The notes below the pieces were generated by a model, which saw only the letters and a program-made list of their open reading frames with translations, was not told where the DNA came from and ran no database searches. From positions 61,008,001-61,072,000 of the forward strand of contig NC_043010.1 of NCBI RefSeq assembly GCF_006345805.1: DNA of 64,000 nt, in the 5' to 3' direction. Both the position numbers and the translations under genes were made by a program. Shown one piece after another: positions 8,364 through 30,548 of the stretch (within the stretch, counting starts at the first letter, position 1; every line of letters begins with the position of its first letter). The stretch is from Octopus sinensis (lineage: Eukaryota).

Positions 8364-10012
8364 TTAATATATAGTCTGCCATAAAATGGTATTTAATGGG
8401 GTGTACTCTTTAACATTTTTACATGAATTAGCAGCAGTTGTAGCCCCAGCCCCTAAACCAGCCCCTAAAGTAGAACCGACAGCTCCACTCGTACTGCTTT
8501 TTCTTAGTTGCTTATGTGTTCGTCTGTGTCGTTGTAGTTTGCCCGTCTGGGAGAAAGCTTTACCACACACCTCACAATGGAACGGTTTCTCTCCAGTGTG
8601 AGTCCGTCGGTGGATTTGTAACGTGTCCCGGCGGGCAAACCTCTGGATACACAGATCACACGGGTATGGTTTTAGCCCTGTGTGGGTTCGTTGGTGTAGC
8701 TGGAGGCGGTCCCGCTGGGCAAATCGGCGCATGCAAACTCCACACTCGTATGGTTTCTCACCAGAATGTACCCTGTGGTGGATCTGTAGCTTATCCTTGC
8801 GGGAAAATTGCCGAGGACAAAGGGAACAACAAAACGGTTTTTCCCCAGAATGAGTTCTTTGGTGCATCTGCAGTTTATCTCTTCGTGCAAACTTCTTTGG
8901 ACAAACGCTGCATTGAAACGGTTTCTCCCCTGTATGGGTTCGGGTATGAATTTGCAGGTGGTCTTTACGAGCAAATTGCTTCGGACAAAGTTGACACTGG
9001 AAAGGTTTCTCTCCGGAATGAGTGAGTTTATGGGTTTGAAGAGTATTTCGTTGGGCGAAACATTTGGAACATATATCACAAGAATATGGCTTCTCCCCCG
9101 TATGTGTCCTGCGATGCATTCGTAGCTTGTCCCTCTGCGCAAACTGTTTACAGCAGAAATCACAAGGAAATGGTTTCTCGCCGGTGTGAGAACGCCTGTG
9201 GATTTGCAGTTTGTCGTTTCTGGCAAACTTTTTTTGGCAAAACTCACAGGTGAACGGTTTCTCACCTGAGTGAATACGTTGGTGGATTTTCAAGTTGTCA
9301 CGTCGAGCAAACTGCTTGGAACAAGTGTCACAGTGGAATGGTTTCTCTCCTGTGTGGGATCTCTTGTGAATCTGAAGAGTGTGTCTCTGAGCAAACTGCT
9401 TCGGACAATCTGTACAATGGAAAGGCTTCACGCATTTTACATTCTTCTCCTCGCTGTTGTTGTTGTTGTTGTTGTTGTTGATGCTGATGCTTTTATTGAT
9501 GTCATTGTTGCTGTTGGTACTATTGTTGCTGCTGTTGTTGTTGTTGTTGCTGATTTTGCTGCTGTTGTTACTGCTGCCGGTGCTGCTGCTGTTATTGTTA
9601 TTATTATTATTATTGTTATTATTGATATTGTTGCTGTTGCTGCTGTTGGTGGTGGGGGTGCTGCTGCAGGCGGGAGGTGTAGGGGTAGGAGTGGGGGTGA
9701 TACAGTTTGGGGTGGCATTGTTCGCTCTGCAGCTACTACCGCCACCACCACCACCTCCTCCACCACCACAGCAACTGTTATTGCTGTTGGTGCTATTATG
9801 AACGTGATGATGATGATGATAGCTAATACTATGATTACCGTGGGGATGGTGATGGTGGTGGTGGTGGTGGTGGAGGTGGTTGGGAGGAAGCAGTGTCTTG
9901 GGGGAGGGGCTGTGGCTCACAAACGGTTTGGCAGCTTCTGGTTGTTGTTGTTGTTGTTGTTGTTGTTGAGGTTGTGTTTGTTGTTGCTGTTGTTGTTGTT
10001 GTTGCCGTTGCT

Positions 10013-10043
<31 letters not shown>

Positions 10044-10547
10044 TTGTTGCTGCTGCTGCTGCTGCTGCTGACAAGCTGATTCGGTGGAACTGCTCCTTGG
10101 CGACAGCAGAGACGGTTTTTCAATGGAGAGCGGTTCCAGGACCTGACCGTGATGACTCTGGTTTGAAATGTGCTGGTCGTGGGCCTGCCTCAGGACTGAC
10201 CCTTGGAGGGGACTCTGGGGAGGATGCGGCGTGGTCATGTGAACGGGACTCTGTTGACAACGCTGGTCGTTCAAAGACAGGGAAGCGGCAGCCGCTTGCA
10301 GATAACAGTTCTGGGATGCATATTGCTTGGCGTAGATGTTGCTGCATGGCACAATCATTGGTCGGTCATGCGAGACGGCAGCCTGGAAATAGCAGCTCTG
10401 TGCAAACTGCTTGCTGCACATGTCCATAGAGAATTGCTTTTCAGCTGCATGTGACATCCGGCCGTGCGTGGGCAGAGCGTAATGAGGCTGGAACTGTTGG
10501 CTGGGGACATTGCAATGGATCGTCTTCTCACTCATGTATCCGTCCAT
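8364..10547 (-). CDS. C2H2 (Kruppel-type) zinc-finger protein, 11 tandem fingers, 727 aa, N-terminal polyQ/polyH/polyG/polyN region
   Basis: Uninterrupted ORF with 11 repeats of CxxC-x12-HxxxH joined by T/SGEKPF/Y linkers (approx. 8514-9429). The track starts at a TTG (10553); the first ATG is at 10547 in an AAAATGG context. Confidence 0.95.
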
Positions 10548-11677
10548 TTTCAAGCTTTAACCTGGTTTTAATTAAACCATACAAGAAATTTTGCACTCTG
10601 GTCTTGTGGTCAATATCGGCTCGATATGTAAAAGATTAATTGGTTTGAAGGGGATAAACTGCGTGTAATAAATTAAATGATTGTATAGATCCAGTGGGTG
10701 TAGAGATTAATCAGGAAAATATTACATGTGAGATATCGTACCTGCTGTTATAGCAACAGAGCTCACAGTGACTGTCATGGTTGGACACTGATAAAATGAG
10801 GTTTGATTCAAGATTAATCACAAGCGTGTATGTGTATGTCTGTGCATATACATATACAAGTTAAGTTATTCAATGAATGTGTGTATATGTATACATGTGG
10901 GTGTGTGTGCTTTATGTAGTTTAATATATATTTATGTTCATATACATGTAATATATATATTGTGTCACTTAATATAGATATATATACATATAGATGTATG
11001 CTGAATGTCTGAATTAAAGATGCAAGCTATCTGAGTTTTTTTGAAAATTGATGTTTTAACAGAGATGGTTCACTATTTTCTTCCAAAGACAGTGTGTGTG
11101 TGTGTATATGTGAGTGTGTTTGGTGAAAGTCTCTCAGCACTTTTTTTTTATTCAATATTCTTCAGGCAGAGACTTTCTTTGCTCCTTTTGCAGCCTGATT
11201 TTACAACTGGAAGATTTCGCTGATCCCACATTAATTAATCCATCAATCATGTAAGAGTAATTAATAAATTTGATGGGTTTTTCTTTGCACATCACAATCA
11301 CGAGTCTGGCAATATTTTATTGTTGTCTTCCACCAGTAAATATCTTGAAATCAAATTGCTAATTTCAGAAATCAAATAATTACTTAAAAAAAAAAAATGA
11401 ATAAATGTAACGAAGAATAGAGACTATGTAAAGTCAATGATGGTGCTTGATAATAATAAACACGGAGGTTGTAGAACAGTTGATGGGCGCATAGTGACCA
11501 TATTTTATCGAATATAATTACTTCGGTGTCTCTCAAACACATCAGATATGGAGTCCATCTTGCGAATGTCTTTGTCTGCAAAATAAAAGGTGGGAAATAA
11601 GCATTATATATAGATAAATGTTATATAATAACATATAGATAAATGTTATATAATACGCATGGCATATAAATAAACAT

Positions 11678-13770: not shown

Positions 13771-13957
13771 ATATTCTAATATTACTGCCAGATCTCAGAT
13801 GCCAAGAGAAGATATATTATGAGAGAAAGAGAGAGTGAGGGAGAGAGAAAGAGAGAGAGGAGGCTTTTATTGAATGGATGGTGAGTGATGTGGTAACATG
13901 AAAGAATAACTTCAAAAGTTTTCATGTGCACCACACACAAACACATATATATATATA

Positions 13958-14165
13958 GTTAATCCAAACAAGAAAACACAAGAAAACACAACAACGCGAG
14001 GACGTGGAACAAATATAGTATTATTGGACGCTCAAGAAAGAAGGGAAGAAGGAGGGTTTAACGTTTCGAGCGGAGCTCTTCGTCAGACACATAGGAGAAG
14101 GAAAGATCCAGAGAAGGGAAGACAGAGGAAAAAAAATCGCCAACGGTACACACGAGGTCACATAC
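13958..14165 (-). mobile_element. Short Penelope-type terminal fragment carrying a minimal hammerhead (14056-14090)
   Basis: Minus strand: GTGT-CTGACGA-A-GAGC-TCC-GCTC-GAAAC-GTT-AAAC. The 3' end abuts (TA)n, and the same terminus recurs at 29338-29388. Confidence 0.75.
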
Positions 14166-14436
14166 TCATGTATCTTATGTGTATATACATATATACATAG
14201 ATTGATAGATAGATATGAATACATATATACTTCTGTATATGCATGCGTCCGTGTGTGTGTGTGTGTGTGTGTGTAATAGTCGTAAATAAATGTCACGATA
14301 CAAGTTGTCATTTTTCCATTGTTCCATGGAACCATGTCCAGTTGTAAGGAAATATTAGAAAACCTGCCTCAATGAATTTCATCTGACCCATGCAAGTAGG
14401 TAAAAGTGAATGTTAAAATGATCGTGAGTATACATA

Positions 14437-14479
<43 letters not shown>

Positions 14480-15849
14480 TAAATGAAATAAAACATATGC
14501 ATATATATAAACATATATGTACGTACCTACCTCTACATGTACATATACACGCATATATGAGTACAGGACACCAAGGGGACGTCGAACACAAAGAGAAACG
14601 AAAACATAGACACAAACCAAAGGAACAGGACATTTTTTTTAAAAACAACAAAAAATGGAGTACAGGACAGTTAACACAACGAAAAAAAACCCTTCTTCAG
14701 TCGCTAAGGTTTCATCTACTCTACGTTTCGAAGGATAAAAGCGAGACGTATCTTCGACAAGAAACTTTCCTTCCTGCGAAAAGCAAATCAATTAAAATTC
14801 TGAGATATATATATATGGGTAACAACCTCCTCATAACATGCATATCAAAGCTCCTATACAGTTATTGGCTACCATTTGCCATCATACAGCAGGATTACTC
14901 CTTTTACTGGACATACATGCAAGACTACAAACCCCAAGATGGGGAGCAACAACATTATGCTAGAAGAATTAAGGAGTAGAGAGTAGTAAAACATGAGACA
15001 AAAGGGTCTGAGCAGAACGGGTTGGCTGCTGAAGAAGGGAAACATGACTATAGACATGTAGAAGAGAGGGTGTGCGTTGGTGGAGAGGCAAAGGGATAAA
15101 AAAAAATGTGGTGATGAGATATCAGGGGTACCAGAGTGAGTGGGGGAGTAGGGGATGTCTGATAGTGTAGAGCAGCAGAATAGTGTGTGTGTGTGTCTGT
15201 GTGTGTAGTTAGATATATACAGCAGTCTCTGCTTCAATTTGAACCTGGATTCTTTTTCCTATTAGAAGGTTTTAGCAAATAACAAATCGTTCAAATGTAA
15301 CCAATGACACCCAAATGACGCCCATCAAATTCTTGGACTGACAACGACCAAACATTGTTGACTGAAAATCAGTGAAGCATCAACTGATCTAAACTCAGCT
15401 TATAAAATGCGTAGCAAGGAATAAGCAAATGGGAAGAAGAATAGGGTCACAAATGGAGCTGGACAAACAGACAGACACAGAGATGCACTCATGCATTAAG
15501 TTAACTTCAATATCAGTTGTTTTCCAGCAATTAAATGGGTCAGCCTAGACATTATGCAATACCTTATGTCCAAACAAAGCTGATCACAAGATTCTCTTAT
15601 AGAATCAGGCCACAAGGTTAATCTAATTCTTCTGACCTTATTTTGTAATTTTCTTCCTGGGAACAGCCATGTTCCATTTTCACTTTTTATGAATAAAACA
15701 GATGAACTTAAACAACAAACTGCTTTTGTTTTCCTATGGAGCTGTTCATTTTTGTTAAATCAATTCTTTTCTCAATCATACATGGAGATACACATACATA
15801 TACATATTCATACACACACCCATATATGTACATACGTATACATAATATT

Positions 15850-16540
15850 GACAGGAAGTCTTGTGGTATCTTTTGAACTTATTAATAATACGTTACATTG
15901 AAATCGAGAGGTTAAGTTTCGGGGTTTCAAGAGCAGGTGATAGCTACAAAACACATATTGAACACAAAAAGGGACAGCAAGAGCCTTCAACCCCTTCCCC
16001 AGAAGCAACTGGAAATGTCGATTACATCCCATTTCAGTGGAAGATAATACACATGTGACCATCAGCTACCCCCAAAAATGACATTAAGGTAATACCTTCC
16101 AATACATCATCATCATGTTGTTAATACCTTGATGTTGGAAAACTGTCCCCCACCTTCGATGGACAAATACAAAAGCTATTTCTGGCATGGAGTACATACA
16201 TTCATTTCAAGATAACAAATTTTGGAGGGACATTCCCCTCTAAACATAACAGGCTTCTCATATTGTTTGGGTCAGAAAAGAACAATTATGTGTTATTATA
16301 CAAGACATTTGCCCTACAGATACGAACATTTTTTCTCAATCAGGGAGAAAGAGAGCATTTATGGAGAACTGCATCAAAAACTACAGCTCCCTACCCAGGT
16401 CATCAATTTACATTTCCATCTGCAATTATTGGTGCAGTTGGTTATCTTACTAAATGTCTATGTGGTAAAATTGAAAAGCTGAGCTTTGCAGACAAAGACT
16501 GTGAACCACCAGTGCAGTCATTGCCATATTGTACCTGATT
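15850..16540 (+). mobile_element. Decayed restriction-like-endonuclease non-LTR retrotransposon (R4/Dong-like) C-terminus
   Basis: Frameshifted motifs in the expected order: ..QEQVIATK.., EDNTHVTISYP.KM..YLP.HH..V (CCHC knuckle remnant), HNR, EKESIYGEL..YPG.QFTF..IIGAVG.L..L..IEKL. Confidence 0.65.
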
Positions 16541-22864: not shown

Positions 22865-23030
22865 GTTCAAATTTACAGAAAACAAAAGACGAAGACAGGT
22901 GTAGGAACAACAAGCAGGTGTATTAGTTTGACACTCAGGAACAAGAATGGAAAAAGTGTTTTACGTTTCGAGCCTATGCTCTTCAACAGAAAGGATCAAG
23001 AGGGAAAAAAACGGAGAGAGAATGAAAAAA
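22865..23030 (-). mobile_element. Short Penelope-type element with variant hammerhead (22958-22993)
   Basis: Minus strand: CTTT-CTGTTGA-A-GAGC-ATAG-GCTC-GAAAC-GTA-AAAC. Homologous to 29130-29282 and 49152-49350. Confidence 0.75.
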
Positions 23031-23429: not shown

Positions 23430-23539
23430 TCTTAAACAAGACTATTATTGACAGTTTCAGCCAGTTAAGCCATTATCAGACTGCCAATGGCTTAACTGGC
23501 CGAAACTTCAAAGTCACTGTCAACAATATATTTGTTTAA
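23430..23539. repeat. Fold-back palindrome of a hammerhead-bearing element
   Basis: GTTTCAGCCAGTTAAGCCATT pairs with AATGGCTTAACTGGCCGAAAC. Outer arms are TTAAACAA..TATTGACAGT and ACTGTCAACA..TTGTTTAA. Confidence 0.8.
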
Positions 23540-29291: not shown

Positions 29292-29341
<50 letters not shown>

Positions 29342-29394
29342 ATCCAAACAAGAAAGCACAAAAGAACACAACAACGCAAGGACGTATATATATA

Positions 29395-30548
29395 CAAGGC
29401 TAGTTTTTGTATGTGGCAAATGCTCAGGAACAATAAACACTGAAAATGCGCAGAGACCAACTTCCGCCACATTCCAGGGAGAAAAACTAGAAATAGTTGA
29501 TAGCTTCCGTTACCTAGGTGACCAAGTCAGTAGCGGGGGTGAGTGTGCTGAAAGTGTAACTGCTAGAGTAAGAATAGCCTGGCCAAAGTTCAGAGAGCTC
29601 TTACCTCTGCTGGTGACAAAAGGCCTCTCGCTCAGAGTAAAAGGTAGACTGTATGACGCATGTGTACGAACAGCCATGCTACATGGCAGTGAAACATGGG
29701 CCGTGACTGCTGAGGATATGCGTAAGCTCGCAAGAAATGAAGCCAGTATGCTCCGATGGATGTGTAATGTCAGTGTTCATACTCGACAGAGTGTAAGTAC
29801 CTTGAGAGAAAAGTTGGACATAAGAAGCATCAGTTGTGGTGTGCAAGAGAGACGTTTGCGCTGGTATGGTCATGTGGCAAGAATGGATGAAGATAGTTGT
29901 GTGAAAAAGTGCCACACACTAGCAGTTGAGGGAACCTGTGGAACAGGTAGACCCAGGAAAACCTGGGACGAGGTGGTGAAGCACGACCTTCGAACTTTAG
30001 CTCTCACCGAGGAAATGACTAGAGACCGAGACCTTTGGAAGTATGCTGTGCGTGAGAAGACCCAGCAGGACAAGTGAGACCATAACCCGTGGCCCCTACC
30101 TGGGATGTAGCCAGTCCACTTATGCATACCTTTCCTTCTTGGGACACAAAACTCTACTTGTGAAGACTTGTTGAGGCAAGTGAAAATTAAAATCGAAATC
30201 AATCAACATCAATGGAAATTGTAGCTGTGATACCGGTGCCGGTGGCACGTAAGCGAACCATCCGAACATGACTGTTGCCAGCACCGCCCCGACGGGCCTC
30301 CGTGCCGGTGGCACGTAATAAGCACCATCCGATCGTGGCTGTTTGCCAGCCTCGTCTGGCACGTAAAAAGCACCCACTACACTCACAGAGTGGTTGGCGT
30401 TAGGAAGGGCATCCAGCCGTAGAAACACTGCCAGATCAGACTGGGCCTGGTGCAGCCTTCTGGCTTCCCAGACCCCAGTTGAACCGTCCAACCCATGCTA
30501 GCATGGAAAGCGGATGCTAAACGATGATGATGATGATGATGATGATGA
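29395..30548 (+). mobile_element. 5'-truncated, young RTE-clade LINE (ORF C-terminus, 3' UTR, (TGA)n tail)
   Basis: Open frame 29403-30077 reads FVCGKC..LEIVDSFRYLGD..LHGSETW..RRLRWYGHVARM..GRPRKTW. The 3' UTR is shared by many truncated copies in the window. Confidence 0.93.

What the first reader, a model, noticed from the sequence alone, without database searches (positions are those of the whole stretch)
13958..14165. Sister element with an intact CUGACGA hammerhead core
Seen: the minus strand reads GUGU-CUGACGA-A-GAGC-UCC-GCUC-GAAAC-GUU-AAAC. It has the same extra A, GAGC/GCUC stem II and loopless palindromic stem III (AACGUU) as the CUGUUGA family. Its core is canonical and its flanks differ. 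Stem I has one mismatch. Inference: structure is conserved across families while sequence turns over. It lies on the ZNF gene's strand ~3.5 kb upstream of the ATG, so it could sit in the pre-mRNA.
Basis: partly seen in the sequence, partly recalled or inferred. Interest (0 to 1): 0.7.

Follow-up and report, generated by a model that had tools for sequence, protein, structure and literature searches.

The report
Worn hammerhead in a Penelope repeat
This is one of roughly ten thousand copies of the end-repeat of a Penelope-type jumping gene, which carries a known kind of minimal hammerhead (self-cutting RNA) motif; this copy's perfect-looking core is likely a chance back-mutation and one of its stems is mismatched, so it likely does nothing to the neighbouring gene.

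Summary
The motif is real and not chance: a 22-base core occurs 9,573 times in the genome, control 0. The 206-bp element is the solo pseudo-LTR of a Penelope-like retrotransposon; long copies carry it beside an RT + CxxC + GIY-YIG ORF. Its hammerhead fits the published minimal PLE type, and stems I and II covary across families. But the 'intact' core does not represent its subfamily: 6,552 exact copies read CCGACGA (U4C), 2,710 CUGACGA. A rooted tree makes CUGA ancestral and U4C derived, and nests this copy among U4C copies, so its CUGA is likely a CpG back-mutation. Its stem I mismatch is nearly private (87 of 90 copies read GUUU, none GUGU). 63 of 100 copies begin 99-112 nt upstream of the cut, 1 at it, so templates were mostly uncut. 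Effect on the ZNF pre-mRNA is unlikely. Of side interest: two large lineages fixed core changes (U4C, A6U) yet kept the fold.

The parts
13958..14163 (-). Solo pseudo-LTR (pLTR) of a Penelope-like element, unit length, about 206 bp
   Evidence: 39 other near-full-length matches at 94-97% identity among 40 scored of 1,505 candidates; same sequence flanks an RT-GIY-YIG ORF in long copies; its 5' end lies in the main start cluster of the family
14056..14090 (-). Minimal type I hammerhead motif; predicted cut after GUU, between 14060 and 14059
   Evidence: Sequence; cross-family covariation; cleavage not tested
14085..14085 (-). U4 of the core; C in this copy's subfamily, so likely a C-to-T change at a CpG
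   Evidence: 0 of the 29 closest copies have U4; 0 of 10 diagnostic sites of the old CUGA subfamily; nested among CCGA copies, 95/84
14088..14088 (-). G that breaks base pair 1.2 of stem I; nearly private to this copy
   Evidence: Shared by 1 of 29 closest copies; 87 of 90 anchor-picked copies read GUUU and none GUGU
13945..13957 (.). (TA)n run abutting the element's 3' end, likely the insertion target
   Evidence: 68 of 100 copies continue into TATATA or TTTATA
8364..10556 (-). C2H2 zinc-finger ORF (host gene, not part of the element)
   Evidence: zf-H2C2_2 E 1.8e-70
11576..11577 (-). Likely splice acceptor of the ZNF gene (pyrimidine tract + CAG), implying an exon further upstream
   Evidence: Contigs of two guessed-RNA runs from two studies stop at 11576 with 183 letters lying elsewhere, while a contig of run X16 goes on to 11637; sequence
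29338..29385 (-). Truncated 3' end of the same pLTR family, without the hammerhead
   Evidence: 92% identity over 48 bases

Best explanation
The stretch is a solo pseudo-LTR of a Penelope-like retrotransposon carrying a minimal hammerhead motif, and this copy is likely an inert insertion whose canonical core likely arose by back-mutation. Shown: full elements read pLTR(hammerhead) - short tail - 5' UTR - ORF (DKG, RT, CX4CxxC linker, GIY-YIG) - long CA-rich 3' UTR - pLTR - (TA)n. Inferred: transcription starts in the pLTR about 100-110 nt upstream of the hammerhead cut site; the element protein nicks (TA)n DNA and primes reverse transcription at the UA-rich tail just past the pLTR, copying back to the RNA start. 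That yields the 200-210 bp solo units, read straight through an uncut hammerhead. Inferred: the hammerhead can cut only as a dimer through the ACGU palindrome, slowly, perhaps with protein help. The lineage went from CUGA to CCGA (U4C) once and kept amplifying; this copy then changed C to T at a CpG and gained a stem I mismatch. It likely sits in a ZNF intron with no partner copy nearby, so cutting of the pre-mRNA is predicted to be negligible.
For: Copy number 9,573, control 0. Upstream PLE ORF start in L027 led to 20 long loci: 19 of 20 hold the pLTR, several on both sides of the ORF; motif order and tail; weak Pfam RVT_1 and GIY-YIG hits below curated cut-offs; 861 homologues at E<=1e-20, top hits about 50% identical with RVT_1, some with GIY-YIG. 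Core counts CCGACGA 6,552, CUGACGA 2,710, opposite-strand CpG decay CCAACGA 208, so about 200 CUGA copies are expected from decay alone. Tree rooted on a related CUGAAGA family: CUGA ladder basal, 44-row clade of CCGA copies at 98/87, this copy inside it. 63 of 100 copies start at -112 to -99, 1 at +1 to +4. Computed active-dimer energy +0.1 kcal/mol for this copy against -7.3 for an ordinary family copy; monomer minimum-energy fold pairs the core with the cut site. Published: PLE min-HHRs do not cut as monomers and cut weakly as dimers (PMC4209133); uncut RNA is the main insertion substrate and RT starts internally at the tail (PMC11167929).
Against: No cleavage assay and no raw RNA reads were available. 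2,710 copies, an older subfamily, do carry the canonical core, so CUGA alone is not a sign of decay; the back-mutation reading rests on a 207-column tree and 10 diagnostic sites, and a short gene conversion from a CUGA copy would look the same. TA-abutting 5' junctions are about four times commoner in the AAA just after the cut (50 places) than in the AAA 7 nt before it (12 places), which may mean a small share of templates was cut. Energies from secondary-structure models ignore tertiary contacts. The transcription start is inferred from copy ends only.
Confidence: 0.87

Rival explanations
1. This copy is an active, co-opted ribozyme that cuts the ZNF pre-mRNA or nascent transcript and affects its splicing or level.
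For: Canonical core on the gene's strand; likely intronic.
Against: Stem I has 3 of 4 pairs, no stem III as a monomer, GUU site; active dimer about 7 kcal/mol worse than ordinary family copies; no second copy of this family's hammerhead in the window; one exact-core copy per about 280 kb genome-wide makes nearness to some gene unremarkable; the copy is young (about 96% identical to its relatives).
Confidence: 0.04
2. The family's hammerhead is catalytically dead and kept only as a structure (protein-binding or promoter-overlapping element) in the pLTR; core changes such as U4C and A6U are neutral.
For: U4C fixed in all later subfamilies; in the sister family 0 of the first 100 listed matches have A6 (99 U, 1 C); templates mostly uncut; hammerhead mutants do not affect insertion in vitro (PMC11167929).
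Against: C3, G5, G8, A9, GAAA and the N-U-H site are kept across four families while N7 and loop II vary freely, the pattern expected of catalytic constraint; U4C and A6C variants keep low activity in other hammerheads (PMC3088659). This rival concerns the family and is compatible with the rest of the best explanation.
Confidence: 0.3
3. The element is an independent non-LTR retrozyme or SINE that replicates through circular RNA, not a PLE end.
For: Most copies are solo, about 200 bp, non-coding; one locus has three tandem copies 270-280 bp apart (L049).
Against: Same sequence is the flanking repeat of RT-EN elements; copy 5' ends cluster 100-110 nt before the cut rather than at it, and tandem units are separated by (TA)n; helix I is 4 bp, not 6.
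Confidence: 0.05

Closest known systems
Minimal hammerheads (min-HHR) in pLTRs of metazoan Penelope-like elements (Cervera and de la Pena 2014, PMC4209133; read parts 1-2 of 4, supplements not seen)
   Same: Type I order, extra nucleotide between 9 and 10.1, G10.1-C11.1, palindromic 15.2-16.2 with no loop III, helix I of 4-5 bp, thousands of dispersed solo copies, few in full elements.
   Different: Helix II is 4 bp with a 3-nt loop (7-8 bp in Schistosoma); majority core is U4C, and A6U in the sister family; the core variant named in the text read is U3-A8. Octopus is not named in the parts read.
Short-stem-III hammerheads of PLEs that cleave as dimers (Lunse, Weinberg, Breaker, RNA Biol 14:1499; not held, seen only as a reference and summary in PMC6765202)
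   Same: Very short palindromic stem III, PLE association, dimer cleavage expected.
   Different: Could not check whether that paper's alignments already include these families or the U4C/A6U cores.
C-terminal EN+ PLEs of the Neptune/Nematis type (Craig et al. 2021, PMC8557442; passages read)
   Same: RT then GIY-YIG, CX2-5CxxC linker before the endonuclease, DKG motif, pLTRs, tail, microsatellite targeting.
   Different: Unusually long CA-rich 3' UTR (about 2-3 kb); Neptune versus Nematis not resolved here.
Poseidon element of Anolis, PAc (PMC11167929; passages read)
   Same: Hammerhead in the pLTR, internal RT start that defines the tail, uncut RNA as main substrate, AT-rich target.
   Different: In PAc the ORF begins inside the hammerhead; here the ATG lies about 430 nt after the core.
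Non-LTR retrozymes (bioRxiv 10.64898/2026.07.22.740005, part 1 of 5 read; PMC7229834, listing only)
   Same: Non-coding, hammerhead-bearing, PLE-derived short units.
   Different: Retrozymes are tandem arrays with a type I hammerhead in each unit; these copies are mostly solo and bounded by (TA)n.

Membership tests
PLE minimal hammerhead (min-HHR) | CUGANGA and GAAA core boxes with N-U-H site | tested here: met
   Met in this copy. Its subfamily deviates at U4: 6,552 CCGACGA against 2,710 CUGACGA.
PLE minimal hammerhead (min-HHR) | Extra nucleotide between A9 and G10.1; G10.1-C11.1 pair | tested here: met
   A in 90 of 91 family copies parsed (the parser required G10.1-C11.1); both present in this copy.
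PLE minimal hammerhead (min-HHR) | Palindromic 15.2-16.2, no loop III | tested here: met
   CG in 88 of 91 copies.
PLE minimal hammerhead (min-HHR) | Helix I of 4-5 bp with covariation between families | tested here: met
   Family: pairs 1.1-1.4 formed in 86, 81, 88, 88 of 91; compensatory changes in two other families. This copy forms only 3 of 4.
PLE minimal hammerhead (min-HHR) | Lies in the pLTR of a PLE | tested here: met
PLE minimal hammerhead (min-HHR) | Self-cleavage as a dimer | not testable with these tools
   Only energies and an inconclusive genomic footprint.
EN+ Penelope-like element | Single ORF with RT followed by GIY-YIG endonuclease | tested here: met
   Motif order in 8 long copies examined; Pfam hits weak; homologues with RVT_1 and GIY-YIG. 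No copy examined had one unbroken ORF.
EN+ Penelope-like element | Direct pseudo-LTRs flanking the ORF, tail after the upstream pLTR, inverted or tandem partial copies | tested here: met
   pLTR on both sides in L049, L050, L052; tail in L049, L050, L052, L060; inverted pair in L057; triple tandem in L049.
Neptune/Nematis clades | CX2-5CxxC linker before GIY-YIG | tested here: met
   CX4CxxC found in 6 of 8 long copies examined; definition from PMC8557442.
Neptune clade proper | Placement in an RT tree with named reference elements | not tested
   No named references were on hand; homologues are unnamed.
Non-LTR retrozyme | Head-to-tail arrays of units with a hammerhead in each | tested here: not met
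   This copy is solo; copies are mostly flanked by microsatellite; one triple with (TA)n spacers.
Rfam hammerhead families | Covariance-model match | tested here: not met
   No hammerhead hit at E up to 10 in 13900-14250; expected for motifs without stem III (inference).

The most novel reading that the evidence does not exclude
Two of the largest Penelope-type lineages in this genome each fixed a different activity-lowering change in the hammerhead core (U4C in about 6,500 exact copies, A6U in about 18,000) while keeping every helix by compensatory change, and went on amplifying from uncut RNA. Selection may favour a deliberately weak ribozyme, and the ancestral, derived and back-mutated cores lying side by side in one genome form a natural series for testing what PLE hammerheads are for.
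Probability: 0.25. Interest if true: 0.55.

Novelty: new member of a known kind. Interest (0 to 1): 0.27.

Why it matters
For this locus, little: it is one worn copy among about ten thousand. For the family, it adds a very large set of PLE hammerheads in an octopus-like genome and shows that descriptor searches demanding CUGANGA miss most of them (U4C, A6U). Whether PLE hammerheads need to cut at all is an open question (PMC8557442, PMC11167929); a rooted CUGA-to-CCGA switch followed by continued amplification makes that question testable with natural variants.

Tried and rejected
First reading, that CUGA is purely private, was rejected (2,710 copies, an older subfamily); the refined reading is reversion inside the U4C clade. 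Rfam scans found no hammerhead (top 150 of 184 rows seen). PDB sequence search of the RT found nothing; the protein atlas gave no result. No RNA holder listed on record; laid runs were contigs only, so no strand, level or RNA ends; the element's bin is filled by paralogues, and lack of cover at 14986-16493 in the two guessed-RNA runs is not evidence. The orthologous insertion in other species could not be read. Footprint of cutting: among 25 distinct TA-abutting places in the first 100 rows, 5 start at +1 to +3 and none at -12 to -1, but starts are about as dense from +5 to +18, so this is a trough over the hammerhead rather than a peak at the cut; (50 versus 12 places after removing double-counted rows: 75 rows to 59 places, 9 starting past the AAA dropped; 20 rows to 13 places, 1 dropped) cannot separate cutting from RT stalling or junction preference. 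The Lunse et al. paper was not held. Searches of earlier findings by words and by sequence were blank. Literature searches for an octopus hammerhead or these core variants in PLEs found none, but subscription papers and supplements were not seen.

Full report
Observation. The minus strand at 14090-14056 reads as reported: a 4-nt stem I strand, CUGACGA, an extra A, stem II GAGC/GCUC closing UCC, GAAA, CGU, U17 and AAAC, with one G-A mismatch in stem I and the predicted cut at 14060/14059. The ZNF ORF is on the same strand 3.5 kb away. Three CUGUUGA copies lie at 22989 (-), 29162 (+) and 49312 (-); their sites are GUA, AUC and GUA, so the palindrome shared with this element is ACGU, not AACGUU. 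Rfam has no hammerhead hit here. The host is a 2.7-Gb animal genome; I call it octopus-like from its repeat content and zinc-finger gene (recalled resemblance, not tested).

A large repeat family. A DNA search gave 1,505 first-look candidates; the 40 scored were this copy and 39 near-full-length matches at 94-97% identity. The 22-base core occurs exactly 9,573 times, control 0. Copies end at the same 3' base and run into (TA)n (68 of 100 continue with TATATA or TTTATA, 19 otherwise, 13 without the end motif).

It is the pseudo-LTR of a Penelope-like element. One copy (L027) was preceded by coding-like sequence. Searching with it gave 40 matches; I fetched 9-kb stretches for the top 20 apart from L027 itself, and 19 of 20 held the element, several both before and after the ORF. 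In 8 long copies examined, the order is pLTR with hammerhead, a tail beginning UUUAUAUA, ATG about 430 nt after the core, DKG, RT motifs, CX4CxxC, GIY-YIG, a 2-3 kb CA-rich stretch, then the pLTR and (TA)n. Pfam hits are weak and below cut-off (RVT_1 E 2.5e-4, GIY-YIG E 1.8e-3), but 861 homologues at E<=1e-20 were found, the best about 50% identical and annotated RVT_1, some with GIY-YIG. The CxxC linker marks the Neptune and Nematis clades (PMC8557442, passages); I did not resolve which. No copy examined had an unbroken ORF.

The hammerhead is of the published minimal PLE type. Cervera and de la Pena list the extra nucleotide after A9, G10.1-C11.1, palindromic 15.2-16.2 and a 4-5 bp helix I, with no monomer activity and low dimer activity (PMC4209133, parts 1-2 of 4). 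A generic pattern finds 12,932 canonical-core motifs in this genome against 35 in the control. Across families stem I reads GUUU/AAAC (86 and 54 of 91 for the two strands; the fourth pair is G-C in 67, G-U in 21), CUUU/AAAG (38 copies) and GACAC/GUGUU (13 copies); stem II changes from GAGC/GCUC to GGCUG/CAGCC; pairing stops at the fifth position in this family (1 of 91) (10 parsed copies fell in no family and 2 in a fourth).

The intact core is not representative. None of the 29 closest copies has U4. Genome-wide, exact cores read CCGACGA 6,552 times, CUGACGA 2,710 and CCAACGA (the opposite-strand CpG change) 208. So CUGA is mostly a real subfamily, with about 200 copies expected from CpG decay. 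The CUGA subfamily has its own diagnostic sites; this copy has 0 of 10 (sites were chosen from the same sample). In a tree of 77 rows rooted on four copies of a related CUGAAGA family, CUGA copies form the basal ladder, all 35 CCGA rows fall in one 44-row clade (98/87), and this copy nests inside it with three CCGA copies (95/84); two other CUGA rows also lie inside (207 columns; of the 30 top-similarity copies only 7 were included; partial copies left out). I infer U4C arose once and this copy reverted; gene conversion is not excluded. The stem I G is shared by 1 of 29 close copies and 0 of 90 anchor-picked copies. The computed active dimer is +0.1 kcal/mol here against -7.3 for ordinary A or B copies, and in all eight sequences folded it lies above two monomer folds and above the best co-fold; this copy's best monomer fold pairs the core with the cut site.

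How the solo copies arise. Among 100 copies picked only by a 3' anchor (the first 100 listed on contig C1 of 4,982), 63 begin at -112 to -99 from the cut, 6 further upstream, 1 at +2; this copy begins at about -104. The templates were therefore mostly uncut. This agrees with the Anolis PLE, where RT starts internally at the tail, uncut RNA is the main substrate, hammerhead mutants still insert and cleavage needs protein (PMC11167929, passages). I infer a pLTR transcription start near -110 and priming of nicked (TA)n on the UA-rich tail. Against a wholly inert ribozyme: TA-abutting 5' junctions number 50 in the AAA just after the cut and 12 in the AAA just before (binomial p 1e-6), but junctions are about equally dense further downstream, so this is inconclusive and concerns well under 1 in 100 copies.

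The ZNF gene. This weak hint puts an exon further upstream and the element in an intron, in sense. With a broken stem I, no stem III, no partner copy in the window and one exact-core copy per about 280 kb, an effect on the gene is unlikely.

What is of interest. The sister family has 18,139 matches to its stem II pattern; of the first 100 listed none has A6 (99 U, 1 C), while N7 takes all four letters. U4C lowers activity in vitro yet supports viroid infectivity, and A6C gives low activity (PMC3088659, passage and section 8). I found no paper on hammerheads of octopus PLEs or on these variants in PLEs; a 2026 octopus repeat annotation lists Penelope families and has no occurrence of hammerhead or ribozyme in its main text (PMC13282606, passages). 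The most relevant paper (Lunse et al.) was not held and supplements were not read, so prior description is not excluded.

Verdict. Real motif, known kind, ordinary copy. New member of a known kind; interest 0.27.

Noticed in passing
window 22989 (-), 29162 (+), 49312 (-); loci L123-L152: Sister family with CUGUNGA core (A6U fixed, N7 free), 18,139 pattern matches; perfect CUUU/AAAG stem I, ends in (TA)n. Its own long element was not sought.
   Followed up: partly
L154-L181 (for example L160): Third large family with canonical CUGAUGA core, GGCUG/CAGCC stem II, 5-bp stem I and GUU site; best candidate for activity; PLE link not tested.
   Followed up: partly
L046:1339-1420: The 3' end of the CUGUNGA family is joined directly to the 5' UTR of this family's ORF, in place of its own pLTR: possible template switch, suggesting shared machinery.
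   Followed up: no
L068, L076-L078, L080, L085, L086, L062, L057: A derived U4C subfamily changed the site from GUU to GUC and has a U-U mismatch in stem I.
   Followed up: partly
L049:6560-7316: Three tandem pLTRs 270-280 bp apart separated by (TA)n, a layout that could allow hammerhead dimers.
   Followed up: no
window 14555-14800 (-): Another repeat 670 nt upstream on the same strand with a worn hammerhead-like motif at 14760 and a second CUGAAGA box at 14700.
   Followed up: no
window 48694 (+), 23479 (-), 13764 (-): Further hammerhead-like boxes; the one at 23479 sits in an inverted duplication.
   Followed up: no
window 29343-30077 (+): 244-aa open frame resembling the end of an RTE-type LINE protein (recalled resemblance; no Pfam hit), directly after TA-nested pLTR pieces of two families.
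   Followed up: no
L121, L100: Two CUGA copies cluster inside the U4C clade (98/78), possibly a reverted lineage that itself amplified.
   Followed up: no
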